A stretch of 64,000 bases of DNA from Callorhinchus milii (lineage: Eukaryota): NCBI RefSeq assembly GCF_018977255.1, contig NW_024704747.1, positions 21,266,001 to 21,330,000 of the forward strand, given 5' to 3'. A program made the position numbers and the translations under genes. This document shows positions 2,224-36,849 of this stretch, in pieces (position 1 is the first letter of the stretch; each line of letters opens with the position of its first letter). The notes below the pieces were generated by a model. That model was not told the DNA's origin. It saw only the letters and a program-made list of their open reading frames with translations, and did no database searches.

Positions 2224-2556
2224 ATTTTGCAAATGACCAGCGAACATGAGGCGAAGTAAGTGTTTTTGTTTGTCTCTGCGGAGTTACATTGGGGCATCTT
2301 TGACCATGTTTTGATATGTCCAGAGTCAAATTAGTTTTTATTTTAGTTGGCAGCAAGATGGGTGCAACCTGTAGCCTCTCGGTATCTGAAGGTTTATTTT
2401 TTAAAAGCCTGAAAAAAACACCAGAGTAAACAGGAAAAGGAGAGGGAGAAGGTGGACGTTTCTTTTTCAGATACAGATGCTAACGGGTCAACAAGGGTCA
2501 TATGATTGTGCTGAGCGATAATATGACTCCTGCCCTGACTTGTGTGGGATATCATG
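2224..2556 (+). repeat. Inverted segmental duplication, left copy block A (partner 36455-36849)
   Basis: Shared strings such as tgcaacctgtagcctctcggtatctgaaggttta and atgactcctgccctgacttgtgtgggatatcatg occur reverse-complemented at 36455-36849. Confidence 0.92.
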
Positions 2557-3269
2557 CTTCGGGGAGACCAACACTGTTTTTTTGTGCTGGAAGGTGAGAA
2601 GGTGAGAAATTAATCTGCAAAGGGTGAGGAGGGGGCATTTAATAACAATAAAATAATTATTGCATTACATAGAGCACCTTTCACATCAGGGGGATGTCCC
2701 AAAGCACTTCACAGGATATACTGGAAAGTGGAGTGACTATGTCCCCTCCCCTGACCTGCCCCACCAACCCACCATTGGTGGGCCAGCTTTCAGTCCATCT
2801 ACCCCCTCCCCCTGGAAACGCTATCCATCTACTCCGATTCGCACCTGGCCTCCCCGTCAATAAAACTTAAGGCCTTAAGATCTATCTCATCAGCCATCTC
2901 ATCCCCTCCAGGGTAGGAATGGGGAATAGCAGGGGGGTGACCGAAGGCCCAGCCAAGGATTTAGGGAGAGAGTTCCAGATAGCAGAGGAACAATAGTTGG
3001 GCAGAGGGGCAGGGGACATGGAGCAGGCCAGAGCTGAGAAGGGGGAGTATTTGATGGTCTTTCAGGCCATCGTCCTCATCTCCCAAAACAGTTAACCTGC
3101 ACTGTAATTAATTCAGTGCTTTTGCATTGCACTGAGTAAAACCCTTGATGATATTGCTTCTGTTGCAGTTTCTGTGTGGTTGCTAAATTTTAAAATTAGT
3201 GACTTTTCACCTTTTGCCATCAGAAAACGGTCATAAAAGATGGATATTTCTGCCAACTTCATAATGCAT

Positions 3270-3760
3270 GTGAGATAGTCTCCCGTGTGAGATGGGCCGC
3301 TCTCTCCTGTACGTTTCCACCGTTAAACCCGGCCCATCTTCTAACCACAGTCACACCTGTTTAGTTTGGAAGGTGTTGGGATCATGACCATTCGTGTGAC
3401 TGTCGGAGCCAAAACCTCAGGTGAAACAAGACTTTGTTGTGCTGTGCCAATTGGCCTGGCCCTGGTGTTTACCCTGTTTAGTAAAGGACAGCGATAAAGG
3501 GTGCACCTTGTCTCATGCTACTCTAAGTGCGAATGCTGCTTTCAGACACCAGAGTGCTTGCCCACCAGGAGCCGAGTGGTGTGACTGGGATAAAGAACAC
3601 AGGAAACGGCTTAGACAAACGACAGTAACAACCTGGAGCCTGACTGACCGCTCGGTGTCCCAGTCTCGGTCACCAGTTTGTAGCAGCTACACTGCCTCAC
3701 ACTGTTCCAATGGACTCACGGGTTTTCTGATGGGCAGAGTGCAGTGCACTCCTCCCCTCA
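3270..3760 (+). repeat. Inverted segmental duplication, left copy block B core (partner 35861-36358)
   Basis: Near-identical reverse complement, about 12 substitutions and 3 small indels by eye. Confidence 0.97.
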
Positions 3761-5601
3761 ACCCACTGGACTAACTGTGGAGCCTGTTACCCTGGATGTT
3801 CTGATGCCCTGGTAACACTGAGATGGAGGGCAAAAGTCTCAAAGTGAACATGCCTTGCACAATAGTTTTTTAAATCGTTCACTTATTTAACCAGAGTTGA
3901 CAGCTTAGGTATGTGAGAGTGATAGTCCTTATAAAGCTATTCTCTCCTGGTGCTCAGTCTGGAGTTTCCTAGGTCCACTGCGCGTCATTTCTGAACAGAT
4001 TAATGACCGGACGTTTGCTGATCTGAAAGCTGCCACTGGGAGCTGCCCAAGAAGTCCAAATGGGTCAGACATTCCTAGCTGGACAAGCAGCGGGAAGCAT
4101 GCCAGGCTGTGCTCTCACTAATAATACTATATTCAGAAAATGCTTGACAAAATACCTGGTGAACAAAATAACAATCTCCTGCAAAAAATAGCTATTTTAG
4201 GAAGTTCAAACATATTAAGAAAAGTAACGTTCATTCATCTGTGACATAGTAGTATTATTGGTCTGGCTGACACATCATTAAAAAACATTCAGAAATTACC
4301 TCTAGAGAGTGATTTAAACTAATGACATAATAATAATAATCCTGACAATCCTGATATTGCGCTTTTCACATTGGGAGGACGTTTCAAAGTGCTCACGTGA
4401 TTAACTGTAAAGTGGCGTGACTGTGTTTTTTGTGGGCAAAAGCAACAACCAATTTGCACACAGCAATGTTGTACAAACAAACTATGTGGTTTTAGTTGGT
4501 TAACTCCAGCAGAACCCCAGTGCACACTCTGGGGCCCTAAGCCTTCATGCTGACCAACCTGTGCCTTATAGTCTCCGGAATCAATTTTTTTCCTTCTTTG
4601 TAAATGAAGGAAGGAACTTGCACTTTCTTAGCACCAGATCACATCAAAATATCCCAAATTGATTAATCCTGTCAGGTAGAGCCATTGCTGTTGTTGGCAG
4701 TCAATTTTGCTCCTAGCAAAATAGTCATCACGTAGATGCCTGATTTATCTGGAGGATTGTTAACCAAGATATGGGAAAGAACTGCCTTCTCTTTACCAAC
4801 AGCGTCACTTTAACATCCACCTGAAGAAGCAGATGTGGTTTAAGGCCTCTCTAAAGAACGTGTCTGCTTCTTGCATTTTTTTTGAAAATATATATTTATT
4901 TATAAATATAATATTTGGAACAACAGAAATCCAAAACAAACACAGCGAGCAACGTCTTCTGTTACAATATTTTTCCTTTCTCCTGATACATTCTGCTGTC
5001 TACGGTACATTCCTTCACCGCACATAGGTTGTGCGCACGGTTTTTGGGTCGTTCCCTTTAAAACAGCTGGGAATCGCCCCTGTGTACACCTCATCCATGT
5101 GTGCGCCCACACACACCCCGATAAGGCTCAATTGCCGCTTCTGGAAGATGCCCGGATGTGCACCATACGGGCACATGTTTACCCTACATACATTTTCGGG
5201 ACGCTCTCCACGGTTACATCTCGAGTGTTCTTCTGAACCCTTACGTTTCTTTCACTGCCTGCTATCCTGAATGTACATAGGCAAGAGAGCAACCGGATTG
5301 AGTGCTGTGGAGCAGTTCAGAGCCTAACAGGCCAGCTTTCTTGTTTACTTTGCAGATAAGTTGCAGCTTCGCTTCAGTGCTTTGTGATGCTCAAGCCATA
5401 AACTCCTAGATAAAGCACAGCACTACATTACTCATTTGTTATCAGCTTGTTTTATTTCCTGAGGAACAGCACTGTTCCTCTGTGATAGTATCGGGCAGAG
5501 TCAAATCAAATGGCAAAACTGGAGCAGGGCTAAGCAACTGAATACTGTTGGAGTCTTGATGCCATATGATACTCCAGCTCCTCAGTATCATAAGCGCTAA
5601 A

Positions 5602-5920
5602 CTAATAATAAAAATAAATAATCCTTGCATTTGATATAGCGCTTTTCACGTTTTCTAGACGTCCCAAAGCGCTTCACAGAATATACTGTAAAGTGAATTG
5701 ACTGCATATTTGTGGGTGAACGCCAATTGCGCACAGCAGTGTCCCACAAACAGTCGTAGATTGAAAATGACCAATTTATTATTGTTTTGTTTTTTTGGAG
5801 GGATTATTATTAGGAGTGTGGAGTAAGGAAACTTGCCCAAGGTTTCGCCCTGTCTGGATTTGAACTCAGGTCTCTCGCTTGCAAAGCGAGTGCTCTAACC
5901 ACTGAGCTACAGGACTCCAC
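5602..5920 (-). mobile_element. tRNA-derived SINE, full length, short subtype
   Basis: tRNA-like head (GTGGAGTCCTGTAGCTCAGTGGTTAGAGCAC A box; GAGTTCAAATCC B box), L2-like 3' end, (TTA)n tail. Confidence 0.92.
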
Positions 5921-8431
5921 AGGGTAATGAAAAGCCCGAGTGGGTGGGGGGGAGTTAGCTGATGTGGAAGATGGCAAGGAATGGGAACAGGAAGAAAACA
6001 TAGTAGCAGAAGCGATGTGGATTATGGGATAGGACAAATACTTTGATACTAATGCAATTCCCTGGAGCAGAGAAGATTCACAAGAGATCCAGTAGGAGCA
6101 TTCAGAATGGCCATAGGGTTAATAGTGGAAGATTATTCCCACTGGTTGGTGAATCGGCACCCAGTGGAACCAATGAATAAAACATAAACTCAACAGCATT
6201 GTTCAAAACATGAAGTGTTTGAGGTTGAAAGAAAGGTTATTCCCAGGGTTAGGGGTTAACAATGGCCAACATATCCCCTAAATAAAATTGGTCACTCACT
6301 CCACGGTTATTTGTGGGACTTTGCTGTGCGCAACTGGCTGGAGTGTTTTGCCCCCAATATACACGGTCAATCCACTTGACAGTAGATCCTGTGAAGTGCT
6401 TTGAAACATCTCGACGACTTGATAAGGCTGTATATCAAATGCAAGTCTTATTATTATTATTATTATTATTATTGTCATTATCATCATCTGCATCCTGTGG
6501 AGCGCTTTGAGATGCCCTCCTGTCGTGAAAGACTTCATATCAAATGTAAAGATTACTGTTTAATCGCACGTTTTTCACATAGGATGAACATCTCAGAACA
6601 TTTCAAAGAAAGATCTTTAGGGAGAAATTGCACCCGAGTCCAGATTCACCCCATTTGTAAACAGAGCATTTTACAGTGTCCAGAATGTACTTTTTTTGTA
6701 GGCAAATTCAACAGCCATAATGTGCACATCATGACCCCAAAAATAGCCATGAGATGAATCATCAAGTTATCTGGACAATTGTTGGTCATGACACCAGGAG
6801 AAACACCCTTCTCTTTCCAAATCATACTATGGGATCTTTAACATCCACCTGCAGGACAGATAAACAAAACCTCAGTTTATTATCTTGTCAGAAGTATGGC
6901 ATCTCCGATCATGGTCCTGCAGTGGAGTTCAGCCTGGAGTAAGAGCTCAGTTTGAAAGGGTTAATTGGGTTTCTCTCATCTTATGCTGTTAACTCAGTCA
7001 GTTGAGGGCCTGGATGCATCAAATTCTTTCTGATAGAATTGGAGGAATCTTCCAAATTCCAATTGTGTAAGCTCTGAAGTTCTGTGCACGAAATGCGACA
7101 GGACAGCTCTTAGATTCGCTACTGAGTTCACAAAACTCCTGGTTATGAGTAAAAGGGGTAAGGTAGAGGTATGAAGATGCCCATGGATTAACTGTGGCTG
7201 AACAGCAGAGGGAGAGAGAAAGAGAGAGAGGGCAGGTGGAACCTAGCTATGAAAAGCTGGCTCTGTGCAATGGTGCGGAGGTTGCCTCCAGATGTTTATT
7301 TACACTGCCAGCGAAACTGAGGGATACGTTTACAATGCATGGGATATGTCGGCATCACACCACATAACTGTGCCAAGGCCAATTTCGGGTCACTGCTAGT
7401 TCAGGGAACAGAGGCAGGACTTCTTGCTGTATGTACAATTGCGGGCTATCAGGAGAAATTTGCGACACATTATGTCTGAGAATTAAATGTCGCAAATTCC
7501 CTTCCTATATGTCAAGGTGCCTGAATGTGCCACCCACTGGAAGCAATACTTTTGAACATCATCGCATTCAAGCCCTGTACATTAGTAGATACTATCTGAC
7601 TCACTGGGTGCATCCTTCACTGTATATACCTTACGATTCTCCACTTTAGGACTTTGCACTCTCACCATCCAGGCTGACACTCCAATGCAGTGCTCCAATG
7701 AGGGTCAGTGTATTGTTCAAGAAATCTTTTGGAACAAATGTCTTTTGGATGAGACATTCTGGTCCTGTCTGCCTGTTCAGGTGGATGTTAAACATCACAT
7801 GGCATGACTTGAAAAAGAAAAGGGAGTTTCTTCAGCTGATTTTTCACAGCACCCACCTCTTTTCGAACAGCGCTGTGGTGATTTTTGAGGTCCACCTGAA
7901 ATAGGCAGATGGCACCTCAGCTTAAAGTGTGTATGAGGAATGTAGAGACCAGTGTACATTTAACACTTAGCTAAATACAGTAATTGCCACACAATCAAAC
8001 CACTGTTCCTTTTACTCATAAGCAGGAGTTATGTTAACACAGTATCTAAGAGCTGTCCTGTCGCACCACAGGCAGTGGGATATGGGACCCAATGCAACAT
8101 ATGGTCCTGATCTTGTTCTGTAGCCAACACTGAGGAAATAGTTTGGACCTTATTTGCACCCAATTTCCAACCTGGTATGAAAATTGTGTTTTATTGGCTT
8201 TTGGTGTGGTTTTGAAAGGAACGTAAATGACGCATAATTAAAAATGTGGATCCACATTTCATTTCCGTTTCAGAGTCACTCTGATTCTCTTTCTCTCTCT
8301 CTCACCTCGTTCAAGGCACATGTCAAAATGTACTTGTTTGACCGTGCTTTCGATCATCTTTACCCTCCGCACCCTGATGCAAGATGGCAGAAAGTTTAGT
8401 TCAGGGATTCAGGCAGAGAGTTCCAGAGTCT

Positions 8432-8775
8432 TAATAATAATAATAATAATCCTTGCATTTGATATAGCGCTTTTCACATCAGGAGACGTCCCAAAGCGCT
8501 TCACAGAACACACTGTAAAGTGAATTGACTGTATATTTGTGGGCAAACGCGGCAGCCAATTGCGCACAGCAATGTCCCACAAACAGTCACAGTCATTGAA
8601 AATGACCAATTTATTATTGTTTTTGGTTTTTGGAGGGATTATTATTAGGTGTGTGGAGTAAGGAAACTTGCCCAAGGTTTCGCCCTGCCTGCAATTGAAC
8701 TTAGATCCTTCACTTGCAAAGCGAGTGCTCTAACCACTGAGCTGCAGGACTCCACACTGAGCTGCAGGACTCCAC
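8432..8775 (-). mobile_element. tRNA-derived SINE, full length, with tandemly duplicated 20-bp 5' end
   Basis: Same consensus as 5602-5920. actgagctgcaggactccac occurs at both 8736-8755 and 8756-8775. Confidence 0.92.
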
Positions 8776-9462
8776 TAAGTCTTGTGACTTAGTGGCTGAA
8801 AGCACAGCTGCTGATGGTGGAGCAGAGGGGACGAGGGACATGCAGGAGGTTGGAACCAGCTAAGCGAAGGGATTTGGTAGAGGAGTGGGGTAAATCCATC
8901 TGTGTGGATTCATACAGTCAAAATGCAGAGAGAGAGAGATGTTACCACAGCAACCCTGCTTCTATATTGGCTGGTCTGCTAACCTCATCAATGCACATTT
9001 TGGTCCTTTGATTATTATACCACATTCCTAAGAAGGTGAAATAGAAGGGAACTGGTTAGGTGAATAGTCTCGTTGGGAGTCTTGACAAATCTCACAGCTC
9101 ACCAAGCGGAGAGAGGCCAGCGTTGGCCTCAGGTATTCAGACACCAGACCGCAGTGAGTAAGATTATCAGAAACAGTCATTACTGGTTATTTGGTTATTT
9201 GATCTCCCAGCTCTGTAATGTGATCAGCTGAAAATGTATTTAAATCAATTAGACAGCATGATGCAGCTGTCTGGAATGGTGGTGTGGGAGGAATAGATAA
9301 ATACATTACTTACTTTGGTTATAAACCTTTGTGATGCACCACCGCTTCCACCCCTTCCCCCGCCCCACCAGGGAACATCAGGGAACATTGGTCTTTGTAC
9401 TCAGGTCTATGGCAAGTTACTAAACCGGATGCTCCCTCCTGCCCACAGCTAACACCAAGCTA

Positions 9463-10250
9463 GAACAACAACAGATTGCATTTATATCGCGTCTTTCATG
9501 TCGGGAGGATGTCCTAAGTAGCTGGACAGTCAAGGGTTTGCACCCAAGCTGGAGGTTGGAATCCAGAAGGGTGGAGGGCAAAGGGGTGGTGGGAGTGAAA
9601 GGATGACTGAAGCTACGGTCATAGAGGAAGATCTTGAGATGGGCCTTGAATGAATTACGGGATGGAGTCTCAGAGTGTGGAGGCAGTAAGGCTGAAGACT
9701 CAACCGCCAGCAAGCGGAGGGAGCAGGCAGGTGAATAAGATTTTAGTAGGTCGCAGAGGTAGGGAGGAGCAAGACCATGGAGAGCTTTAAAAGTGAGGAT
9801 GAGCATCTTGAACTCGATCATCTGGAGCAAAGATGGGGATTATTGGCTCAGGAAGCGTGGTGCAGGAGAGAGCGCGAGCTGCAGAGTTCTGAATAATCTA
9901 CATCTTGTGAAGGGAATAGTTGGGAAGTCCGACAAGCAGCGAGTTAGCATAGTCAAGCCTGGATATAATGAAAGCATGGATGAGGGTCTTGGCAGCCTGA
10001 AGGGAGAGATACTGCCAGAGATAGACAATGTTGCGGAGGTGGAGGATGGCAGAAGGGATCATGGCATGGATGTGAGTTTTAAAGGACAGTTGAGGCTCGA
10101 ATATAACATCAAAGTTCCGTACTGGCTTAGTGAGGCGGAGAGTGCATCCAGAATTAGTGATACTGTCAGCACCCGAGATGAGGGTGCGCTGACAGGAACC
10201 AAGCAGGAAGGCCTCTGTCTTGTCTAGATTCAACTGGAGTAGAAAGTTTT
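9463..10250 (-). mobile_element. L2 LINE 3' fragment with degenerate RT C-terminus
   Basis: Translations LQLNLDKTEAFLLG...AKTLIHAFIISRLDYANSLLVGLP and FKMLILTFKALHGLAPPYLCDLL are L2 ORF2 hallmarks. (AAC)n tail present. Confidence 0.92.
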
Positions 10251-12949
10251 TGTCTTCAATGTTTGATAAAGCTATTCTCCAGTTCTTATGATAAATGAAA
10301 TTGGTCGTTGACTTGATGGCTGTAAGTGGGACATTGCTGTGCGGAAATTGGCTGCTGTATTCACCCAGAAAATACAAAGTCTACAAATTTATGATATATC
10401 CTGTGAAAGTTTGATGTGTCTTCCTGACGCGAAAGGCACAACCTCAAATGTAAAGACTATTATTATTATAAGTACAGTATCCATCATAGACTCAAATCTT
10501 TTACATGTTTGACAAACAACAGCACAAAGAGATTCACAAGGGAATAACCCAGACAAACAGCACTTATAAACCATTAGTCACAAAAGTTCAACGAGGTCTG
10601 AAATTTACAGACATTTCATAATTAACACAAGGAACACATTAGCAAACGTCACAAATTTCACCTGATTCTGTTACATCCTGACAGCTCTGCCTGATTCATG
10701 ATTAATTTCATTGGATGGTTAATGGTGCAAGAAGCATTAGACTCAGAATTCCACCTAGTCCCAGCCTGTGCTACTCTTGTCTTAGAACTTCAGATCACAG
10801 AGAATTGTAGAGAATTCTTACACTGAGTAATAATCTGCAAGCTGTTTTTCCACAGTTCTTACAAGGAAACCGTTTGAATCCACCTGAAAGAGGCAGTGAA
10901 TTTAAGAATTTTCCACAAGTGCTCCCCATTTTTGAGGTGCTTGCAAAATGCACAGGGACTACACTTTGCAGTATATCCTGTGCAGCGCTTTGAGATGTCC
11001 TCCTGATGTGAAAGGTGCTGTATGAAACGCAAGGATTATTATTGCTAATATTATCTTAATTTTTAAGATAAAATGGTCTTACAGGCTAAGACGAGGTGGA
11101 ATCCCAGGCCTGTTGAATTTACCAAAAGGAACAACCCTTTTTCAGCGTCGGTATTGGAGAATGTGGCTTATGAGATGGTGAGGATCAGAGCAGCCAGGAT
11201 TAGCAGTCACTGTACAGCAATAGCCATTCTGAAGTGGAAGGAGAGTCATCAGATGAACTGTACTCCAATGCTATGCCATCAGAGTGAAAGCCCTGCTGGC
11301 TCTTGATTTACAACAACAATTTACATTTATATTGTGCCCTTCACTTAGGATAACATCTCAAAGTGCTTCACAGTTGGTGGGGTTGGATGCCAGCTACGAT
11401 AACAGAGCGATGATCATCGCTGGGGTCGAAGAGGTGGGGTTTAAAGGATTTTCATGTGGAATTTGAAGATAGATAAGGGTGCAAGATGGAAGGATGGAGG
11501 CAGAGAGTTCCAGAGGTTGGGGGCATAATGACTGAATTCTCGACCACTGCTTTGCTCTATTTATGCAACATTTCAGTGTCCAGAATTTGGCAAATTCTCA
11601 AACACAGCTTTAATTTTGAAATCTACAAAACCTTGTAGATGTCGCAAATGTCGCAAATTAGTTCCCAATGTAAAACCCTTTTGGAAATGGCCTGCAGATG
11701 GACTCTTGTATGTGATAATTCTTGTACAAATTTAAAAAAATCCCAAATGAAAAGAACATATCCTCTGGGGTCTTGCAAATTCATCAATCAAACACAATGT
11801 CCAAACATAGCAGATTAGGTGGAGAAAGCCTGTCAAAAATAGAGTAAGAGGAGCCTTTAAGATTTATTTTGGTTGTCACATTGTCGTCGGGCAAAATGGC
11901 ACTTTTGTACATTAGTAGCAATAACAGGCAGCCAACTCACTGCCAGAATTTGTTGCAGCGTCAGGGGAAGGGTGTGGGGGGAAAGAAGGGGACAGATACA
12001 CAGTAAACCATTGAACCATTTATATTTACAGTAAACTATTGCTCCCAGGATCAACAGGCGGAGGTGACCGGGAGTTTATTAAAACATAAGGCACAGGATA
12101 TTCTTACATCATACTGGAATAGATAAGAGTTGTCTTGCTTTCCCCAGTTCCATGACCTGGCATGTTTATATGACAATCGCTGGAAACAGCAGATGAGAGA
12201 TTGAAGGCTCCACATCAATTGGAACTTTGTGTATGGTACAACGTGATATGTGGGTCTGTGTTTATTAACAAGGAGACAATTTCAGGATCCACAACTTGAA
12301 CTCCAGATCTTGCACACTACAATTCTGTACAAACCCATTCATTTCTTCAAGCCACTTAATGGTCCACCCATAACCATGGAAGCTGAAACATCTTCCAAAT
12401 TATGTCTTTCTGCTCCCTGATAGTCTAATGAGATGTGTCGGGTATTGTGTGTGTATATGGTTGTGAACGTGGAGGTGGGGGCTGTGATTTCCAGGTGGTG
12501 TGAAGTATACAATACCATTGGTTTTGCCTCATTCCACCCCCTTCCACCCCCACCCATCCTATCAACTGTTATCCCTTCACCCCACCACTGATTGGGAAGC
12601 CACTATGCTCCTGCTCTTTGCAACTCCCTCCCAACCTGCCTACCCGTTTCAATCTCTTCAAAGCATTTGGTTAAATGTTGCTTCTGATCAGATCGCCCAT
12701 CCTGCTTAAGACGTTGTAAGTGTAGCTGAACAAAATCACTGTTAATAGGGTGACTTAGTATAAAAAATGTTAAAGCGGCCAACAAGTTACTTATTGGGGG
12801 GAGGGAATTGGGAATATAATAATAATAATTATAATTATAATAATAATAATAATAATAATATTCCTTGCATTTGATATAGCGCCTTATCACATCGTTGAGA
12901 CGTCTCAAAGCACTTCACAGAATATTTTGTAAAGTGTGTATTTGTGGGA

Positions 12950-13118
12950 GAAACCCACCTGGGTCTAGATTTTCTTGAATTCATCCTTAACCTTAAAACC
13001 AGTCTGTAATAGAAACTTATGCCATCTCAATTAAGACTGAATTTTTTTTTAAAAATTCAAAATTCTGGACACTGTGATGCTAAGAAAATACAGTAAATCT
13101 CGACCCAGGTGGAATTTC
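12950..13118. mobile_element. MITE-like element with ~23-bp imperfect terminal inverted repeats
   Basis: gaaacccacctgggtctagattt (12950-12972) pairs with aaatctcgacccaggtggaatttc (13095-13118). Related ends lie at about 6620, 49365 and 52155-52180. Confidence 0.6.
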
Positions 13119-21240: not shown

Positions 21241-21244
21241 AGCC

Positions 21245-24510: not shown

Positions 24511-25229
24511 CTCTCTTGCTTTTCTGTTAACACTACAGTGATGCACCTATTCCTGGAATTACCACTCGTCTGAGGGATAATAATACCCCATAATACACTG
24601 CTCACTAACGTTAGTGCATGTTTCATCCCATGTGAGCCAGCAGCAGGTGTTAGACGCCAGGAAAGATGTACAAACGTTTGTTAAAGAAGAGTGGAGGGTG
24701 CTGCGGAAGTTATCTCACAAGCTGGGCGGTGAGCGGGAGAGTCACACGGGGCACATAAAATACAATACTGAAAGTACGTGGGAGAACTCCAGTCTCCCAC
24801 GTACATTCGGTCTAGTATGTGGGCAACTCAAGTTCTGCCCAGAATGTTGTATGGGAGGCATTCATGTGGACAGCGGAAACTACATTGATCTCCTAAAGAC
24901 TGGCCGAAGAACATCGCCATCTGAAAAGTAAAGCTTCACCATTTGGGTCAGCAGTGTCTAGAGGCAGTGACCTACAGCAACGCCAGGCTAAGAGAGCTCA
25001 GAAATCAAAGGAATCAAGTTACAGCAGGCTGTGTATTAGGGAACAAAAAGACATTCCTGAAGTGAGTGATAAGAAACTGGTGAACCAACGCAAACGATTT
25101 AAACAGTAAAAGATTCAATAACTTTGTGAAACACAGAGTTCGTGCAGATTCTCCAGACTGACCTAGATAAACCAGGCCCTCGGGCTGTGGTCACATACTT
25201 GCTTTATCAGTATATCTGCCGTACACCCA

Positions 25230-25635
25230 TATACATAGCCATATATATATACACGTACATACACATATACACACTACCCGTATATATATATAAACACCAA
25301 TACAAATGCTGTTCATAAAAGCATCCATGTATGCATAACCAGACACCTATACTATACTGCACATATACATACCTCTATATGCATATATAATAATAACAAT
25401 GGCACCTTATTACGTCTTCAAGTCGTCTCAACGTGTTTCACGGGATATACTGTAAAGTGAATAGACTGTATATTTTGTGGGAAAAACGCGGCAGCCAATT
25501 GCGCACAGCATTGTCCATCAAACAGTCGTGGATATATACTCCCATGTGTATATATAGATATACTATATATATATTTTGTATAAATGATACCATAAACCCT
25601 CAGGGATACACACATGCACACACATACACACACGA
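25230..25635. repeat. (TA/CA)-rich low-complexity sequence around a SINE fragment
   Basis: Runs of atatat, acacat and tatata. Confidence 0.7.
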
Positions 25636-26159
25636 GAATCAATCTGCCATTAAAGATATGGGAGCAATCTTTCCGTCTGTCTGTCTGTCTGTCCATGTAT
25701 CTATGTGTCTCTTTCCCTCTCGATCTCCTGATGCTGGCTGCTCAGAACAACCAAGTGTAGGTGTATATTGTGTGCGAGATGAAGTGGGGAGGGCTTCTCA
25801 CAGTGACTTGGGTCTCTGGGCTTTTCTGCACTAGAGCTTGAGAGCTTGAGGTACAAAGTTAGTGTGAAGCTACTGACTTGCACAGTAATGGGCAGAGTCA
25901 TGAAAATGAATTGCCTACAAGATCGTGGGCTGCTGGTGTCAATCAACATGTACTTTATCGAGAGAAAATTGGACCAGAAATAAATCCACTCTTAAAAAGT
26001 AGCCTTAAAATGTCAAAAGAAAGTTGATATATAAAACAGAGATATCTATTTCTCTCCCGAAGTCAGGCCTGTAATAGCAGGGGCAGTAGAGGCATTCCCT
26101 CACTCTGTGAACAGGCGGTTGTAATGAGACACTTGCACACTCCTACAGCTACAGCAAAT

Positions 26160-26530
26160 TGCACTGCGGAGAGAAGAAGCGTGCGAGCTGAGCGGCCAGC
26201 CTCTCTGCTCCACTGATCAAATCCATAATGTATATTCATTAGCAGCTGCGCTCACCCTCTCCCACTCCCTCCCCCCACCTCTCTCTCTCTCTCTCTCTCT
26301 CCTGCTCTTTACATTCTCACGAGGCTTCCTGACATTGTGTGTACGCGTAACTCGACACCGGGCTGTTGTTTTTAAACCGGTCATTTCCAAGACAGTGAGT
26401 CGGTCGGAGTCCGCGTCACGTGGAGCACGTCTACACCTGATGGCTACACAGACTGCTGCTTCCTGCGGGCTGTCTGTGAGCTGCCTCACTGCCTCCGGCC
26501 AAAGGTCCCCAGATAGCCGTCTATTACCAC
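26160..26530. promoter_or_regulatory. CpG-enriched promoter- or enhancer-like region
   Basis: Dense CpGs, (CT)n 26281-26300, GTCACGTG E-box 26415-26422, CTTCCTG ETS-like sites. Not similar to any repeat in this window. Confidence 0.5.
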
Positions 26531-26859
26531 TGGATTGATGGCAGCCAGGTGTGGGCTGAGTCAGCAGACTCCAGGGCACTATTTACTAGAAATCTGCTTA
26601 AACGCAGATAACACGCTACCTTTCCGTGCTGCCCTCAACTGCACTATTTAACCCCGAAACAATCTTCAACGCAGATAACACCCTCTCTGTCTTTGTAACC
26701 CTCATCTGCACTATTTAACCCCCGAAGCACCTTTGCAAGAATCGTAAATGCAACACTTGAAGCCCCGAACCTCACCCAGTCTCAGAGCATTTTGCCTTAA
26801 GATTTAAAATCGCGCAGGACAGAGGAAATTTCCTGCATTCCACCTTAGTAATGTATCGT

Positions 26860-27235
26860 ACTGGTTAGAGCACTCGCATCACAAGCGAGAGAATCCGGTT
26901 TCGATTCCGAGGCAGGGCAAAACCTTAGGCAAGTTTCCAGAAACTTGTTTACCTAGCAGTAAGTAGGAACCCGGTTGTTAGTTAATTGGTGGGTCGCTTT
27001 TCCGGGGGTAATAATCCCTTCAAAAAAATCAAATAACGAATAGATAATAGATAATAATAATAATTTGGTCACTCGATCCACGACTATTTGTCGGACACTG
27101 CTGTGGGCAATTGGCTGCCATATTTCACCGACAATATACAGTCAATTCACTTTACAGTATATTACGTGAAGTGCTTTGAGATGTCTTGAAGATGTGATAA
27201 GGCGCTATATCAAATGCAAGGATTATTATTATTAT
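26860..27235 (+). mobile_element. tRNA-derived SINE, long subtype
   Basis: tggttagagcactcgc...ggtttcgattcc head, gtttacctagcagtaagtaggaacccgg block, (TTA)n tail. Confidence 0.9.
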
Positions 27236-27599
27236 AGTACAAAAATAGGTAGATTTTGAGACAAACCTTGAACACCTTGATGTCATCAGCAAATGTCATT
27301 ACTTTACACTGGGTCTGGGAATCCAGGGGTTAATGTTGGTTGGAAACATCAACTGATTTATACATATATATATATCAAAAATATCTTTTACCCTCTGAAT
27401 GATCCTTTCTGTTTTGCAGCAAGGTTAATAGTAATCTATGAAGTGCTTTGAGAAGTCTTGAAGACGTGATACGGCGCTATATCAAATGCAAGGATTATTA
27501 TTATAATCCTACTTTCAGAGGAGTGTGGCTACCGTCCATTGTAATATTGTTCTGTTCCTCCTTATAGTCCACATTAGCAAAACCACAAGGGTGGGGGGA

Positions 27600-27895
27600 A
27601 CGTGCATTGTCAGGAGGTGGGCATTTGGCTGAGACATTAAAACCTATTTGCCTGTTCAGGTGGACGCTAAGGATACCCTCGGTACCTTTTGGAAAGATAA
27701 GCGAGTTTCTCTTGGTGTTCCAGCCAACAATCCTCCAAATAAAATTGGTTATTCACTTCATGGCTGTTTGTGCGGATTGCTGCGTGCAAATTGACTGCTG
27801 CATTCGTTTACAATCAGTAACTACAGTCCTTTGTAAAGTGCTTTGAAACTTTCTCCACAAGTTTTGGCACTGTATCAAATGCAAGGATTATCGAT
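27600..27895 (+). mobile_element. Deu-domain-type SINE fragment
   Basis: gcctgttcaggtggacgctaagga core plus 3' body. Related fragments lie at about 6700-6950, 7660-7930, 43320-43625, 48090-48470, 49070-49200 and 53930-54250. Confidence 0.72.
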
Positions 27896-30800
27896 ATTTT
27901 TATTGTATTCCCGGTTGCCTTGAAATAAAGGCAATTTGGAAAAAACGCAATTGCATAAGGTGCCTATAAAGCTGTCATTTTGAAATGTTTAGTAAACCTG
28001 CAAATGCCAAGTGCAGAATTTAAAGCAGCAGAAAGCGAGGCTAAGCCACTTTTATGAGGAAATTGGATAAATATTTGAAAAGGAAAAATATAAAAGGGTG
28101 TGTAGAGGAAAAGGCAAGAGACTCTTAACTTTTAAGGCTGTTCAACCATCGTGGATATTCAGCATAAAATTTATTCCAGTTTATAATGGAAGTTACTGAA
28201 CTTGAGTGAATTTGATCATAACAGCCTGTGTAATGCAAAGAGGAGACAGGAAGTATCCCAGTCTTTCACCACTAGCTGTTTCTATAGGTCTTCACAAATC
28301 CTTTTTATTTTGACTTATTTTGCCTCTCCAGCAGATTTTAGAGATTGAAGCTGCACCTTAATCTTTCTCAAGCTCAAATTCATCGTCTCCATCTCCAAAA
28401 CAATCCCTCTCTTTCTCTGCATTAGTTGGGCACAGTTCCATTTTGAATACTTCTAACAGAGGATACCTGGGATTCCTCCTAACGTAACCTGTAAGGCCAT
28501 TTTTGTCTTCAAATTTAAGATCGCAAGGAATTGTGAATAATTCTTAAATGCATTCCTGTCTTTGGAAGCTGATTCTTTTTAAGAACTGTGGAATGCCCGG
28601 TTGACAAATTAAAACTGAATTTAGGAATTTTCTACAATTCTTTTTGCCAAGGCAAGACAGTCTTAACGGGCTAAGATGAGATGAAATTTAAGGTTTAAGA
28701 CTTTGGTGCGTCGGTAGTCGGAAAATATCTTGTAGATAAAGGGGGAGGGGGAAGAACATTGGGTTACACCAGTGATTTATAACTCTACTTTTCATGCTTA
28801 GGCTGCTTTTGGAATAAAATGCTCCCACTGGGGTAAGACTCCTTGGAGTAAAGTGGAATAGTCTCTGTAACTGCCTATGACAGTCTATATTTCTTCACCT
28901 AAACTGCTGCTCACCTCATTGTCTTAAACCATTAATCTTACAATGGGAAATGCTATTCGGCTGTGTTTTTCCATTACATTTTACAAGGCTTCACTGCGGT
29001 TGCTGTAGCCTTTGGTGTTGACCAGTCGTCCCTGATCCTGTTCAATTATACAGTGAAAAATTATAGCTTATGTTCTCAATTCTCACATGCAATAAAGTGG
29101 GGGAGGGGAGGGGTGTGTTTTACTCATGCTTAATGGCACCCGGGGAGGTGATGAGAACAGATCAACTGTTCTACACTATTTCTGCTGCTGGCCTCATCTA
29201 AGCAGAACAGTCAGGCAGGTCGCAAGGGGATGTAGCAACAGACAGAATATTGGTGGATGCCATGGGCGAATGGAGTAGGAGTCAATAGTCAATAGGCTGG
29301 GAGGAGGGGTGAGGAGGAAACACTATAGGTTGGCAGAGCTGTGCCCAACAAGAAGTCATAATAATCATCCTTGAATATACATAATGTCAGGAACATCTCA
29401 AAATGTCTGCAAAGTGTAGTGACTGTATTTGTAGGTGAATAGGGCGGTCAGTATTTGGATAGAATCCCTCTTCTGGGAACTAAGATTGCATGGAGTGACA
29501 TTTGGAGTGATACAGCGCAGAAACAAATCATTTGTCCCAACTAGTCCGGGCCAGTGTTTATAATTCACACGAGCCCCTTCACCCCTACCCCCCCACCCCC
29601 CCACCTTTCTATTCCTCTCTCCTACATCCCTTTTTGTCTGCTTCCTCATATGACTAGAGGAGACTAGGTCTGAGCCTGACCAGCCTATGTACAGTGCTTC
29701 CAGGTCACCTCTTGTCCCACTCCATTTGACTACTGACTCAGGCCCCATTACGCTCTTCCTACACCCAAGTAATATCTTGTCAGGTGCTGCATGGCCCCTG
29801 GTGACCTGCCTTCCGTCTACAGAAGTTATTGTGTAGCTTTTCTGCAGAGCGGATGACGTTTTTCACACAGATAGTGAGCACAACCTTGCACATCTCAGTC
29901 AATATTTGCCATGGATATTTCAGACCACCTTGAACGCTGATCTCCTGAACTCTGACCGTGTCCCCCCACCCACCAGGACAATTGCTGAAGGCATTAGTGA
30001 CAGAGTGCGTACATTTGAGCAGGAGCTTGGGGATCATGTTCGTGGGGACATTCAGGGCAAACGAGCTGATGTTTTCTCTCACAAGATATACAGTCGCTAC
30101 ACTTTACAGCAAATCCTGTGTAACACTTTGAGACATCCTCCGTACATGAAAGGCGCTTTAGCAAATGCGAGAATTAATTATTATTATTATATTATTTTGA
30201 TGATGTTGGGTCTCTCTCCTGAAATACACAGGCCTCAAAGACAAAGATCTATCAAAGCCAGTGCAGGTCTGCAGTAGTACAAGGGAAATTTGGAGATGTT
30301 GCCAAAGCCCTGAAGTGTATGGAGCAGCCCTGACCAGTTCTGCACTGCACTGTTTCTCTTCCTTCTTTTCATTAAGTGAGTTTGAATCGTAGATCATTTT
30401 GATGATTGCGAATTAGCTTTCTGTTTCTCGTGTTTAAACTGAGACTGAGATAAATTAATCAACATTGAGACAAATACACAGACACCAGACTTGGCAGCGA
30501 TTCCCTCTGAAGCCCTGCAAGATGGTTAGATGTCGTAGGCAACCATATCGACTTCACAAATTGTTCCTTCCTGAGGGAACTGGTTCACATATATAGAGCA
30601 ACATGGATGCAGTAATTTTGATACTACCCTCAGCTCTCCTGCAATTATTTCAAGCCTGCAATCTTGTTCAGAGAATTAAGGAATCACAACAAACCATTAC
30701 ATAATAGCTGAAATGCTGTTAATCTGATTATTAGGGTGAGATGTGACTATATTAATCTAACTCTAATTTTTCTGCTTGTTTTATGATGTACTAAAACCTG

Positions 30801-31039
30801 GGTGATTTAAGGGTGGAATATCTATGCCTTGGCTAGTTACTTGATTGGTCACAAATCTGTCACATTTTTACTCTACATGTGCAAGTGCTGTCGGCTCCAC
30901 TATATGATCCCCCTTCTAAGTCCCCACCTAATTTTGTTTCCCTGTCTTCAAAGTCCTTTCAAAAAAGTTTGCCTTTTTGACTGTGCCCTCAGTCACCTTC
31001 CCCCTGCTTCCCACCCATGCTCAGTGTTCTGCACAAGAT

Positions 31040-31280
31040 CCCTAGATTTGATGCTCCATCATAGCATCAAACTGCTTTTTAAATAAGTCCAGTGACTTGG
31101 ATTCACCCACTCTTCCTGGCAACCTATTCCACTTGTTAATTTCCCTCTGAGTAAAGAAAAACTTGGTGTCAGTCCTGAAATTGCCCTTTGCAAGTGTAAA
31201 CCTGTGTCCTCTTGTTCTACTGTCCTGGTGCATCGTAGAGGATTATTCTGGGTTTACTTTTCCAATCCCATTTACCCTTC
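31040..31280 (-). mobile_element. CR1 3' fragment
   Basis: RTRGHRFTLAKGNFRTDTKFFFTQREINKWNRLP translation. Confidence 0.85.
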
Positions 31281-31869
31281 ATGTAAAGCACTTTTGAGTC
31301 ATTCTCATATGTGAGAGGTACTCGATATACTTATGTTATGTACAAGTTATATCCCAGTAACTAATGAGCTATCCAACACTCCGAGTAACTACATTTGACT
31401 GATGCCTGATACTGGCAGTATTACTTGTGAAGCACTTTGAGCCATTTCAATGGGAAGAATTAATAACATGCACAATCTTTCTTTGACTTTCTTCCTGAGG
31501 ATTTCTGACTATTTCCTTTCTACGTTGATAACGTGACCTAAAGTGCAGTGTAGGTGTAACAAGAAACAGTCCTGGAGTGTTGTCTGGGTAATCACAGTGC
31601 CTCAGACAGCAGAGGCTGAAAAGATAATGACCTTGTCTAAATATAATAAATAAACTGCTTTAATCTTCACGGGCTGACTCCATCAATCTTGGAAAGGTTA
31701 CCGACCGGCGTGTTTAAAAACATAGGAGGGATGCAGAATGTAATGAGAAAAGGAGTTTGAGTCCCATCAAAGACACGTGCTTAAACTGCTACAAACTGAG
31801 ATCAATAAATTTATATTTCCATTGGTTCACCCTTTACCTGCCAGTATCAGGCATCAGTCTTAATTGTTT

Positions 31870-32268
31870 GTGGCGTCCTGTAGCTAAGAGGTTAGAGCAC
31901 TCGCCTTGCGAATGAGAGGACCCGGGTTTGATTCCCGGGCAGGGTGAAATATTAGGGAAGTTTCCTTACTCCACACGCCTCTGTGTACCTAGCAGTAAAT
32001 AGGAACCCGGTCATTAGTCAATTGGCAGATCGCCTTTCCGGGGGTAATAATCATTCAAAAAAAATAAAGTAATAATAATAATTTGGTTACTCAATTCACG
32101 ACTGTTTGTGGGACACTTCTGTGCGCAATTAGGTGGCTCGTTTCTTTTACAAAATATACTATCAATTCACTTTACAGTATATGCTGTGAAGCGCTTTGAG
32201 ATTTCTCAAAGACGTGATAAGGCGCTATATCAAATGTAAGGATTATTATTATAATTATTATTATTATT
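31870..32268 (+). mobile_element. tRNA-derived SINE, full length, long subtype
   Basis: Head gtggcgtcctgtagct...ggttagagcac, internal block and tail present. Confidence 0.92.
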
Positions 32269-32963
32269 TACAATAAGCAGGCTGTGCTAACAGTATCCAC
32301 AGATCACCAGTGTTCAGTAACAAACTTGTGTGCTTGTCTGTGGCTTGATTTAGGCACAGGTAAAGAATGACAACTTGCACCTACGTAGCATCTTTCACAT
32401 AGGATGGTGTCTCGAAGCACTTGAGCAGAACTGGGAAAGTGAGTATGGGGGGTTGGAATAGTAGGGAATCTTTTCTGTGAAGGTCCATTTATTACCTGAC
32501 ATGTACTCATACGCACTTTCCTACAGGGATGACAGGATAGGAGAGGTGATGCTGGCTGGTTTCCTTCCCCTCCCCACCCCCATTGACAATAAGGCTAACT
32601 GTGCCTCCACCACTGCCCCAGCTAAGATCAGCTAACTTATTGCACACTAGGCAAGATACCAGCTCCTAACCAAACCTCTTCCCCGCTGCCAAGTGCACTG
32701 ACGTTACAGAGTTTAGTTTGTACCTGCAGAAGATATTATACATTCCTTGTCCCACAGGAACTCTGTCCACCTCACACCCACAAAGGTCCAGAGCACCACA
32801 GCTTTGCTGAATTTTTAGCCACACAGACAGAGGTTGTTAGTTACAGAGCCCAACAGAGCAGGAACCCGCAAACCCCCTCAAACAGCAATGCCAATCCCCT
32901 GACACAGCCGTCAGCAAGAACCATAAAAATCTGCAGCACAGAAAGAGGCCAATCAGCCAACAA

Positions 32964-33330
32964 TCCTGTAGCTCAGTGGTTAGAGCACTCACCTCGCACG
33001 CGAGACGACCTGGGTTTGATTCCCGAGCAGGACGAAAGGTTGGGCAAGCTTCCTTACTCCACATCCCTCTGTTCACCTAGCAGTAAGTAGGAACCCGCTT
33101 GTTAGTCGATTGACAGATCGCTTTTCCAGGAGTAATAATCCCTTAAAAAAAACATTTGGTCACTCAATCCACAACTGTTTATGGGACACCGCTGTGCGCA
33201 ATTGGCTGCTGTGTTTTGCTCACAAAATATATAGTCAATTCACTTTACTGTATATTCTGTGAAGCGCTTTGAGACTTCTCGAAGACGTGATAAGGCGCTC
33301 TATCAAATGCAAGGATTATTATTATTATTA
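32964..33330 (+). mobile_element. tRNA-derived SINE, full length, long subtype
   Basis: Head tcctgtagctcagtggttagagcac, internal block and tail present. Confidence 0.92.
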
Positions 33331-35860
33331 TAGATAAAATTGGTTGTTCACTTCATGTCTGAATGTGGGTGGGATATTGCTGTGCACAAATTGACCACTG
33401 CGTTTTCTCTACACAAAGTCACTACACTTTACAGTGAATCCTGTGAAACATTCTGAGGTATCTTCCTGATGTGAAAGGCGCTGTATCAAATGTAAAGATT
33501 ATTAATATTATGACAGTCCAGCTAGTTTCAGACAGAGTGTAACCAGCTTAACTCTCACATTATGACTTTGAGATGCAGCTACATTCAGGGCGATAGAGCA
33601 GTTCCCCCACATTATATCAACGACATGGCCAATTCCGGTACATCTTATATCTCCTTAATACTCTCACTGGCCATAAGGCACCACAGGACTCAGCGTCACC
33701 TGGTGTGGAACAGTGACTGAGTGGCTGATTGACTTGGTGATAGCTTGGGAGTGTCAAACGACTTACGGTGCAGATGTGTTCTTAAGATAAAAGAGTCTCG
33801 GATATGATGTTATCCCTCACAGTCGATAAAAATAATTTATCTCACATGTAATATGTCTAGACTGGTTACCGACACGAGGAATGTCTCATTCTTCTGAGTC
33901 CTCATATCAGACCATAAGACAAGGCGAGAAAAGGTAACAGGCACCGAATCTCCTTCCTCCAGCAGATTATCTTCGCCATCAAGGCATCCGCCTGTATTTT
34001 GAAGTAACCCTGTCTTTGCCTGTGTTATTTGCTCAATGGATTATTTCCATCCATTTCTTTTGTGAAAATATTCTTCCTGACATCTGTTCCAAATCTCTCT
34101 CTCTCTGGCTTCCTCCGTCTGCGCTCTTCCTGTATGTATCCGGGCTCACTTTGAAGTCAACTACTGCTAGGTTTGTCCACAAAACGGGAACGGCACTTCA
34201 AAGCAACTGATCATGTGAAGCGTTTCAAGACATGTCTATGTTTATAAGATACTTTATTCAAGGCAAGAATTATTATGATAATAGTCTGGCGCTATCTGTA
34301 CCTCAAAATACTCGGTACACTTCAAGCGATATACTCCAAAGTGCTCCGAGACACTGTTCCACGTGAAGACCCTTATATATTGTCAATGCAAGTTGTGGTT
34401 GAGATTTCCTTTTTTTCCCCTGGACTCTAATCTTTGATGCCCATTCTTTTTATACTGCGCTTTCATTGGTAGTCTTTTTGCTCTTTTCTGCTGCTGGTTT
34501 ACCTTTCGTTATGTAGCTGTTATTTCATGCAGGCGTAAACTCCAGGGGTATCCAAGGTAAATCTCCAAGTGGGTCGAGACTCTGTTCTGAATGAAGGGCT
34601 CTAATTAATGCAAGTCATTGTTGGTGTTATAGGAAAAGGGGCAGGTAAAGGGGACTGAAAAGATTTTTCTATAAAAGAGCCAGCACAGACAAAAAAAATG
34701 GCTTTTTTTCTGTGCTGTAACGGTTCTGTGGGTAGAGCTTTGGTCCATCTAGTCTTTGTGGATTGGGGACCAAGACTAGCTCTAGTTGTGACTCTGCTTC
34801 TGACGGCTCCGTTGCATTGTAAAGCCCCAATACCAACCAGTAAAACACAAGCATTAAACAGCAAACCTTTGGTATAACTTCTAATTCCTCCTTATTGAGC
34901 ATCATATTGAAGGATAATCCTTGCCTTTTTTTCCAGAGTTGGGATAAAACCTCACAAGTAAAAGCTCAGAGCTGTGAAACCGTTCCCCAGTTGTACAATA
35001 CATGGTGTTGATGACCAGTCAGTATACATCGCATATATGAGAGCTTCCATCAGCAGAATAATAGCCAGCTAGACTCAGACATCTCTCGTTGGGAGCTGAG
35101 AACTCACCATATGCACAATTAATTACACTCATATCAGATCTTTTGTTTCAGAGTATCTTGAGTGTAAATCAGAAGTTAGTGACGTCTGGTTTTGTATTTC
35201 TCTGACCAGGTTATTGCTGTAAGGATTGTGTGTGCTGTGCCTCACACCCCTGCATCATGTGACTGTTTACTCTCCATTTGAATGGAGGACAACGTACAAT
35301 TCTTTACCAGTCTCACGCCTCAATCTGTGTTTGTCAATTCCCCGTCACAGTAGATAAGAGACTCAGATGGTCACATCTGCCATTGGCTCTTTGATATCTC
35401 AACACTCAGAAATCCTCATGGTCTTAATGATTAATGATCCAGTTTAGACTGAGTCACTGGAGGAGGTTCTTGAAGATAGAAGGATCGTTCTCAACTCAAA
35501 CTGAACCTGCCGTAGCTCAACTCTGGATTAGGTTACACCCCGGGTTCAGTCAGGCTCTGGGTTTAGCAGCAAGGCTGCTATAAACCACTCGTTGCTCCTC
35601 CGCTGAAGATACTGAGGAATGATTCTGTATCTGCTGAGCACATGACAGTAGCTCAGCCATATGTACATTCCTCGCGAGTCAGCCGGTGACAGTGAGTGTT
35701 GGCAGCCTGTGCGGGAGGTCACAGCAGAGCCTGATCTTGGAATCAGGGCCATTCGAAGAGCAAGAATCACGCTTCATTTTTCCTCCATTCTGCGTTTCAA
35801 AGTGACCATGATACCAGGCCGACAGCATCTCCATGGTATCAGCCTCCAGACAGCCCTGGA

Positions 35861-36849
35861 TGAGGGAAGGAGTGCACTGCACTCTGCCCATCAGAAAACC
35901 TGTGGGTCCATTGGAACAGTGTGAGGCAGTGTAGCTGCTGCAAACTGGTGACCGAGACTGGGACACCGAGCGGTCAGTCAGGCTCCAGGTTGTTACTGTC
36001 GTTTGTCTAAGCCGTTTCCTGTATTCTTTATCCCACAGTCACACCACTCGGCTCCTGGTGGGCAAGCACTCTGGTGTCTGAAAGCAGCATTCGCACTGAG
36101 TTAGAGTAGCACAAGACAAGGTGCACCCTTTATCGCTGTCCTTTTACTAAACAGGGTAAACACCAGGGCCAGGCCAATTGGCACAGCACAACAAAGTCTT
36201 GTTTCACCTGAGGTTTTGGCTCCGACAGTCACACGAACGGACATGATCCCAACACCTTCCAAACTAAACAGGTGTGACTGTGGTTAGAAGATGGGCCGGG
36301 TTTAACGGTGGAAACGTACAGGAGAGAGCGGCCCATCTCACAGGGGAGACTGCCTCACACGGGACACAGTGTACGTACAGCAGAAGCAACCATTGTGTTC
36401 CCTCTGACATGAACTGAAGACCAAATAGTCCCCAGCACAACCATAACCTCTGACCATGATATCCCACACAAGTCAGGGCAGGAGTCATGTTACCCCTCAG
36501 AATAATCACATGACCCATGCTGACCCCTTAGCATCTGCAGATCTGCTGTCCGGCGTGGAGGCCACTACATAAATCCAAGTTGTTGTTGCTGTTGTTTAGG
36601 AAAAACAACATCCGCCTTCTCCTTCTCCTTCTGCTTTTCCTGTTTACTCTCGTCTTTTTCTGGCTTTTAAAACATAAACCTTCAGATACCGAGAGGCTAC
36701 AGGTTGCAGCCCCATCTCGCCGCCAACTAAAATAAAAGAGATAGCTCGACTGTGGACACATCAGAAAATGGACAAACCTGCCCCCAATCCTCTTTGTTAT
36801 CTCAAGACTTTTCATTATTATGCCTCACGTTCGCTCGTCGTTTGAAAAT
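35861..36849 (-). repeat. Inverted segmental duplication, right copy (blocks B and A)
   Basis: Reverse complement of 3270-3760 and 2224-2556. Confidence 0.96.

What the first reader, a model, noticed from the sequence alone, without database searches (positions are those of the whole stretch)
2224..36849. Long-range inverted duplication with a near-identical non-coding core
Seen: 3270-3760 is the reverse complement of 35861-36358, with about 12 substitutions and indels of 1, 4 and 2 nt, so it is not a conserved reading frame. The flanks are also homologous but clearly more diverged (2224-2556 vs 36455-36849; 3760-3850 vs 35760-35860). Different sequence lies between the blocks in each copy: about 700 bp including L2 pieces on the left, about 100 bp on the right. 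Inference: this is an old duplication whose core is kept homogeneous by gene conversion or purifying selection. The inverted pair could also act as recombination breakpoints that flip the ~32 kb between them.
Basis: partly seen in the sequence, partly recalled or inferred. Interest (0 to 1): 0.7.

Follow-up and report, generated by a model that had tools for sequence, protein, structure and literature searches.

The report
Twin inverted elements upstream of fibronectin
Two opposite-facing copies of a 1.6-kb non-coding block lie 32 kb apart between the fibronectin (FN1) and MREG genes of a cartilaginous fish; they are likely an old duplicated enhancer whose 490-base core is likely kept about 97% alike by one copy overwriting the other, a known process, and no flipping of the DNA between them is shown.

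Summary
3269-3760 is the reverse complement of 35861-36359 (480 of 492 aligned bases identical; indels of 1, 4 and 2 nt). The flanks match at 74-89% in separate blocks, divided by spacers that barely align or not at all. The genome holds only these two copies, and contigs from other individuals carry both, so it is neither a transposon nor an assembly error. The pair lies in the FN1-MREG interval, 34-36 kb and about 68 kb upstream of the FN1 start codon. Core identity starts and ends within about 20 bases, and the core carries common polymorphisms (4-5 sites in 991 bp against 12 in 977 bp of unique flank), more than pure constraint predicts. Gene conversion is therefore the likely homogeniser. 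The small flank blocks keep a FOX:ETS-type motif and a perfect DR4 nuclear-receptor element in both copies, which suggests enhancer modules; these motifs were found post hoc and are untested. No protein, Rfam family or transcript was found. A hairpin in one block is a weak miRNA lead. Inversion is plausible but untested. Verdict: a new instance of a known kind; modest interest.

The parts
2226..2290 (+). Left copy, outermost block
   Evidence: 77% to 36785-36848; beats 300 of 300 shuffles
2291..2452 (+). Left copy, module 1; 35-bp identical run; holds the FOX:ETS-type motif GTAAACAGGAA at 2426-2436
   Evidence: 88% to 36621-36784; motif in both copies and nowhere else in 404 kb scanned
2474..2556 (+). 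Left copy, module 2; DR4 element (GGGTCA-n4-GGGTCA) at 2485-2500; also folds as a hairpin (2480-2550)
   Evidence: 89% to 36455-36537; DR4 half-sites unchanged, 2 of 4 spacer bases changed; folds
2557..3268 (.). Left spacer, 712 bp, with a high-copy repeat piece (2639-2738) and two L2-like pieces (about 2740-2909, 2915-3047)
3269..3760 (+). Left core, near-identical block
   Evidence: 97.6% to right core; two copies in G000
3761..3817 (+). Left inner flank, old homology
   Evidence: 74% to 35809-35860
3818..35808 (.). Interval that a crossover between the cores would invert; repeat-rich, no gene found
35809..35860 (-). Right inner flank
35861..36359 (-). Right core
36455..36537 (-). Right copy, module 2 (DR4 at 36511-36526; hairpin)
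36621..36848 (-). Right copy, module 1 (FOX:ETS-type motif at 36637-36647) and outermost block
39263..40829 (-). Context: last exon and 3' UTR of MREG, ending about 2.4 kb from the right copy
   Evidence: MREG exons; RNA contigs cover 39263-40829

Best explanation
This is an old inverted duplication of a 1.6-kb non-coding block upstream of FN1, likely a cluster of enhancer modules, whose 490-base core is likely kept near-identical by gene conversion between the two copies. Shown: two copies only, inverted, 32 kb apart, in the FN1-MREG interval, present in other individuals, block-wise identity with step edges, polymorphic core. Inferred: (1) the duplication is old, because spacers and edges have diverged 25% or more; (2) the short modules (83-160 bp) are too short and diverged to pair efficiently and are held by selection on factor-binding sites; (3) the core is long enough to pair, so break repair on the other copy erases differences faster than they build up; (4) indels and repeat insertions cut the short modules off from that process. 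A crossover instead of a conversion would invert the 32 kb, probably with little effect because no gene was found inside.
For: Copy number 2 (control repeat 4499 candidates). Identity in 40-column windows rises from 0.5-0.6 to 0.9-1.0 at about 3269 and falls from 0.95 to 0.6-0.7 at about 3760. Core polymorphism 5 sites in 991 bp against 12 in 977 bp of unique flank (Fisher p 0.09 for a difference). If constraint alone explained 2.2% divergence against 25% at the edges, about 1.1 sites are expected; P(>=5)=0.005, P(>=4)=0.025. At 3543 and 3551 the left copy reads T,T in 4 of 4 other individuals while the reference left copy equals the right copy: a candidate converted tract. Three indels among 15 differences, and a CA/TG pair at 3514-3515 that looks like CpG decay on opposite strands (inference). 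GTAAACAGGAA and DR4 kept in both copies (shuffle p 0.000-0.008); AAACAGGAA is the endothelial ETS:FOX motif in PMC5295818 (passages). Pairing needs a few hundred bases and is broken by insertions (PMC3924837, passages).
Against: No orthologue from a second species was available, so the standard four-sequence test of concerted evolution was not run. No derived allele shared by both copies was shown. With the 12%-diverged modules as comparator the polymorphism test is not significant (P 0.08). One core site (3556) rests on a single contig of depth 4, and one (3598) on contig ends. T,T could be two new mutations. Clustering of differences is not significant (p 0.07-0.13). The motifs were picked after looking, out of 23 scanned; sparing of the 12 DR4 bases has chance probability 0.19. 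The core itself shows no convincing motif enrichment. No chromatin or reporter data.
Confidence: 0.58

Rival explanations
1. Functionless duplicate under neutral concerted evolution: an island of conversion shrinking from its edges, possibly one recent overwrite of 490 bases, with the motifs being chance.
For: Outer and inner edges are the most diverged (77%, 74%), as erosion predicts. Core polymorphism is not significantly lower than in flanks. Motif evidence is post hoc.
Against: Modules at 88-89% sit directly beside spacer that hardly aligns (16 and 51 of 300 shuffles as good), so something held them while the spacer decayed. Identical runs of 35-36 bp inside them are borderline unlikely (p 0.04-0.06).
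Confidence: 0.18
2. Both cores are held by very strong purifying selection alone (a duplicated ultraconserved element), with no exchange between copies.
For: Core polymorphism is about 2.4-fold lower than flank (5/991 vs 12/977). The element lies upstream of a developmental matrix gene.
Against: Common variants and three indels in the core; excess of polymorphism over divergence; step edges.
Confidence: 0.1
3. A pair of non-coding RNA genes: module 2 is a microRNA precursor (unchanged 3' arm, changed loop) and the core is part of its primary transcript.
For: Both copies fold as one hairpin on the same strand (-26.0 and -24.1 kcal/mol, z -3.7 and -1.7), with an A-U to G-C double change in the stem. 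All 9 differences fall in 2484-2522, none in the following 34 bases.
Against: The differences preserve structure no better than random ones (p 0.07-0.38). 20 of 3808 non-repeat 75-base windows give a comparable hairpin. No Rfam match. The whole core folds no better than shuffles (z 0.04 and -1.75). The DR4 and its facing half-sites would make such a hairpin anyway.
Confidence: 0.11
4. Transposon copies or termini, or an assembly artefact.
For: The window is about 30% repeats; the genome search warns that counts are lower bounds.
Against: 2 of 2 candidates only; no third copy in 404 kb by profile search. Left-type and right-type contigs with the same copy-specific letters in 3 of 4 other individuals (X1, X2, X4; X3 lists only left-type), and a contig with the right copy's short spacer in X2.
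Confidence: 0.03

Closest known systems
Concerted evolution of duplicates by non-allelic gene conversion (Fawcett and Innan, PMC3924837; passages read)
   Same: Close duplicates, a few hundred bases of high identity, ended by indels and transposon insertions at the edges.
   Different: Examples in the passages read are coding genes; here the substrate is non-coding. Shared polymorphism and the cross-species tree are not shown.
Human polymorphic inversions between inverted repeats, e.g. HsInv0209 (PMC3961182; passages read)
   Same: Older inverted duplicates (7 kb, 94%) holding a short near-identical island (782 bp, 99.9%) that is the likely breakpoint; recurrent inversions of similar size.
   Different: Arms here are 1.6 kb and 74-89% outside the core; core 97.6%; no second orientation observed.
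FLNA-EMD inverted repeats of eutherians (Caceres et al. 2007, not held; known through the Discussion of PMC8327919)
   Same: Long-lived inverted repeat flanking tens of kilobases.
   Different: That spacer holds two genes and is X-linked; here no gene was found in the spacer and the age is not established.
Saccharomyces flip/flop region (PMC9731477; abstract and outline only)
   Same: Inverted repeat continually homogenised around a 24-kb segment.
   Different: 4-kb gene-containing arms, both orientations shown.
FOX:ETS endothelial enhancers (motif as described in PMC5295818; passages)
   Same: AAACAGGAA, here as GTAAACAGGAA, kept in both copies upstream of FN1.
   Different: One site per copy; the 9-mer occurs 12 times in 404 kb scanned; no activity data.

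Membership tests
Duplicates under concerted evolution by gene conversion | Two paralogous copies with a tract far more alike than its homologous flanks, with sharp edges | tested here: met
   97.6% core vs 74-89% blocks; step edges
Duplicates under concerted evolution by gene conversion | Copies cluster by species rather than by position | not testable with these tools
   No second species found; G000 has no relatives held
Duplicates under concerted evolution by gene conversion | Shared polymorphism or converted haplotypes | tested here: inconclusive
   Reference left copy equals right copy at 3543 and 3551 where 4 of 4 others differ; direction cannot be polarised; contigs drop alleles
Inverted-repeat-mediated polymorphic inversion | Inverted repeats with several hundred bases of high identity | tested here: met
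   492 bp at 97.6%, longest identical run 101 bp
Inverted-repeat-mediated polymorphic inversion | Both orientations exist in a population or between species | not testable with these tools
   Only short-word contigs were available; none listed spans a whole core with both flanks
Duplicated conserved non-coding element / enhancer | Conserved in other vertebrates | not testable with these tools
   No vertebrate genomes searchable; no copy within 140 kb around the MREG paralogue on C23
Duplicated conserved non-coding element / enhancer | Factor-binding sites kept while neighbours change | tested here: inconclusive
   FOX:ETS-type motif and DR4 kept in both copies, post hoc; p 0.19 for DR4 sparing
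Duplicated conserved non-coding element / enhancer | Open chromatin or reporter activity | not testable with these tools
   No such data
Transposable element | Dispersed copies, or terminal repeats around element genes | tested here: not met
   2 copies; no Pfam family over cut-off in the interior ORFs scanned
microRNA precursor (module 2) | Stable single hairpin kept in both copies | tested here: inconclusive
   Hairpin and one compensatory pair in the stem, not beyond chance
microRNA precursor (module 2) | Processed 21-23-nt reads from both arms | not testable with these tools
   No small-RNA reads; no Rfam family
Protein-coding gene pair | Shared open frame with homologues | tested here: not met
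   Frameshifting indels; no homologue; two hits are summed weak matches to repeat proteins

The most novel reading that the evidence does not exclude
A fibronectin vascular enhancer was duplicated in inverted orientation hundreds of millions of years ago and has been kept as synchronised twins by conversion ever since, with the 32 kb between them flipping repeatedly; with the similar pair noted at the endothelin-PHACTR locus, this would make conversion-locked twin enhancers a recurring regulatory design in cartilaginous fishes.
Probability: 0.12. Interest if true: 0.6.

Novelty: new member of a known kind. Interest (0 to 1): 0.28.

Why it matters
If the reading holds, it is a compact natural example of gene conversion acting on regulatory DNA rather than on genes: any change in one FN1 enhancer copy would spread to, or be erased by, the other. 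It also warns that high identity between paralogous non-coding blocks can mimic ultraconservation or a recent duplication. It marks two testable candidate enhancers for FN1 in a cartilaginous fish. The processes themselves are well known, so the surprise is limited.

Tried and rejected
RNA gene: no Rfam or tRNA match at either copy; whole-core folds no better than shuffles. A 10-bp stem with a 30-nt loop at 3290-3339 scored z -5.2 in one of 198 windows but has no differences between copies to test. Protein: no Pfam match over cut-off for the two core ORFs, no homologue, and P0001/P0002 are summed weak hits to tandem-repeat proteins. Expression: no RNA holder listed for the core, and 4 RNA-guess runs gave depth 0-0.4 over the right core while covering MREG; not evidence of silence. 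Other species: none listed; two exact-word scans of metagenomes found nothing; weak nulls. Third copy: none near the MREG paralogue or in 264 kb around the window; a 2-mismatch hit on C2 forms no hairpin. A larger ancient palindrome: the nested inverted pair 21976-22217/31056-31274 is a high-copy repeat, and no other nested pair in order was found. T-box-like word enrichment in the core: 18% of random windows have an equally repeated 6-mer. Contig depth ratios as a sign of converted haplotypes (left:right 4.0:9.4 in X1, 14.5:8.1 in X2, 7.8:5.7 in X4) and mosaic contigs: too noisy, since these contigs drop alleles. Literature: no paper held all terms; one search listed 7 papers, none on this element by title or abstract start. 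The supplement of PMC3964593 returned 0 hits even for common words, so its microRNA list remains unchecked and may bear on the hairpin. Earlier scan notes held nothing near this place or like this sequence.
Full report
Observation. A self-comparison of the window finds one long low-copy inverted match, 3269-3817 against 36359-35809, plus two shorter ones at 2291-2452 and 2474-2556. Pairwise alignment gives 12 substitutions and indels of 1, 4 and 2 nt in the core. Block identities over ungapped columns are 77% (2226-2290), 88% (2291-2452), 89% (2474-2556), 97.6% (core) and 74% (3761-3817); the two weakest beat 300 of 300 shuffles, while 3818-3950, the sequence outside 2224 and the inner 3830-4300 do not. 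The spacer between module 2 and the core is 712 bp on the left and 95 bp on the right and aligns at best marginally (16 and 51 of 300 shuffles as good). The left spacer holds a very high-copy repeat piece and two pieces similar to repeats at 57050-57550 and 58950-59350; calling these L2 is from recall.

Copy number and reality. The window is G000:C6:21266001-21330000. The core and the flank block each have 2 of 2 candidates in the genome, both in this window. The same search gave 4499 candidates for an ordinary repeat at 73-80% identity, so it can see dispersed families. A profile search over 264 kb around the window and 140 kb around the MREG paralogue on C23 found no third copy. Contigs of four other individuals (X1-X4, one study) were laid on the left copy. 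Left-type letters appear in 4 of 4 and right-type letters (3514, 3515, +4 at 3525, +2 at 3585) in 3 of 4; X2 has a contig joining 2556 to 3269 as the right copy does. This is not an assembly artefact.

Context. MREG exons lie on the minus strand at window 41.5-46.6 kb, and RNA contigs cover its last exon down to 39263. Eleven fibronectin type I domains lie on the minus strand to the left of the window, and a signal-peptide-like first exon starts about 31.8 kb before the window. Both copies are thus in the FN1-MREG interval, 34-36 kb and about 68 kb upstream of FN1, pointing towards each other. No gene was found between them: 31 long ORFs from the window gave only MREG over a Pfam cut-off, and the RNA contigs listed in 21101-35808 are short and of depth 2-4.

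What the core is not. It has no frame shared by both copies across its length. Its longest ORF has no homologue, and two library hits are summed weak matches to repeat proteins. It matches no Rfam family and folds no better than shuffles.

Why conversion. First, the edges are steps: 40-column identity goes from 0.5-0.6 to 0.9-1.0 at about 3269 and from 0.95 to 0.6-0.7 at about 3760. Second, the core is polymorphic. From I counted 12 variable sites in 977 bp of unique, non-repeat flank (leaving out 2434 and 2473, which lie in duplicated blocks, and sites at 2653-2659 and 4171-4229, which lie in repeats) and 5 in 991 bp of the two cores (3543, 3551, 3556 left; 3567, 3598 right). The difference is not significant (p 0.09). 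If selection alone held the cores at 2.2% divergence while edges reached 25%, about 1.1 sites are expected: P(>=5) 0.005, or P(>=4) 0.025 if the low-depth site 3556 is dropped. Against the 12%-diverged modules the test is not significant (0.08). The test is rough: weakly harmful variants do segregate, and these contigs drop alleles. Third, at 3543 and 3551 all four individuals carry T,T on the left copy, whereas the reference left copy has the right copy's letters, with left-specific letters kept at 3525 and 3585 on either side. That is what a 9-59-base converted tract looks like, but two new mutations cannot be excluded without an outgroup. Core divergence is about five times flank diversity, so the last homogenisation is recent relative to the duplication (inference). 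Clustering of differences was not significant.

Why probably regulatory. The short modules are far more alike than the spacer beside them and are shorter than the few hundred bases that pairing needs (PMC3924837, passages), so selection is the simpler keeper. Module 1 keeps GTAAACAGGAA in both copies and this 11-mer occurs nowhere else in 404 kb; module 2 keeps a perfect DR4 with 2 of 4 spacer bases changed, one of 4 strict DR4s in 404 kb. AAACAGGAA is the endothelial ETS:FOX motif (PMC5295818, passages); DR4 as a thyroid-hormone or LXR receptor element is recalled. These were noticed by eye and then counted among 23 motifs, and sparing of the DR4 bases has probability 0.19. In the core only loose GATA and CCAAT words reach p about 0.02, and repeated T-box-like words are not unusual after allowing for choice. 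Enhancer function is therefore a lead, about 60% in my judgement.

The hairpin rival. Module 2 folds as one hairpin on the same strand in both copies with an A-U to G-C change in the stem, and its 3' arm is unchanged. But random substitutions preserve the fold about as well (p 0.07-0.38) and 20 of 3808 windows give comparable hairpins. The word was in no searched paper, and the supplement of PMC3964593 (main-text passages read) was not searchable in practice.

Inversion. A crossover within the cores would flip 3.8-35.8 kb. Human cases with a short near-identical island inside older inverted duplicates are known, and recurrence is common (PMC3961182, passages); see also FLNA-EMD (through PMC8327919, passages and first part of the Discussion) and the yeast flip/flop region (PMC9731477, abstract). 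The contigs available cannot phase across a core, so nothing here shows a second orientation.

Comparison and verdict. It works like a duplicate pair under concerted evolution and meets the one defining feature that could be tested cleanly; the cross-species tree and shared polymorphism are open. Searches for a description of this element found none; two papers found under duplicated conserved elements were read in passages and did not bear on it (PMC3514665, PMC3879966). Unchecked scan notes report several conversion-homogenised inverted pairs in this genome, one of nearly the same build (430 bases, 45 kb apart, endothelin-PHACTR). That lowers the surprise of this single case and is a lead, not support. 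New member of a known kind; interest 0.28.

Noticed in passing
window 2358-2429 and 36644-36715: Both copies have an ATG in good Kozak context opening a 23-codon frame that ends at the same stop; a 2-nt insertion and a 2-nt deletion cancel, so the peptides differ almost entirely (read by eye). Probably chance.
   Followed up: no
window 3290-3339 and 36289-36338: Perfect 10-bp inverted repeat with a 30-base spacer at the outer edge of the core, identical in both copies.
   Followed up: partly
window 26050-26580: GC-rich, CpG-enriched non-repeat stretch with a (CT)n tract inside the interval, followed by a diverged direct repeat at 26569-26733; possibly a promoter or enhancer.
   Followed up: no
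window 5845-5916, 23394-23465, 31874-31947, 32962-33035, 56255-56320, 60608-60670: tRNA-Ala-like hits that lie at the ends of a 320-bp repeat family; likely SINE heads, not tRNA genes.
   Followed up: partly
G000:C23:7413550-7415599: A second MREG-family gene, with three exons matched; no copy of the element within 140 kb around it.
   Followed up: partly
L013:2400-3800: Strong CpG island just right of the window, probably a promoter; gene not identified.
   Followed up: no
window 2473 (left copy): A 6-base tandem insertion with a neighbouring substitution segregates in X1 and X3 at the start of module 2.
   Followed up: no
L003, about 4350-4610: A 274-bp self-inverted stretch at 76% identity, 5.4-5.6 kb left of the window; possibly a small transposon relic.
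   Followed up: no
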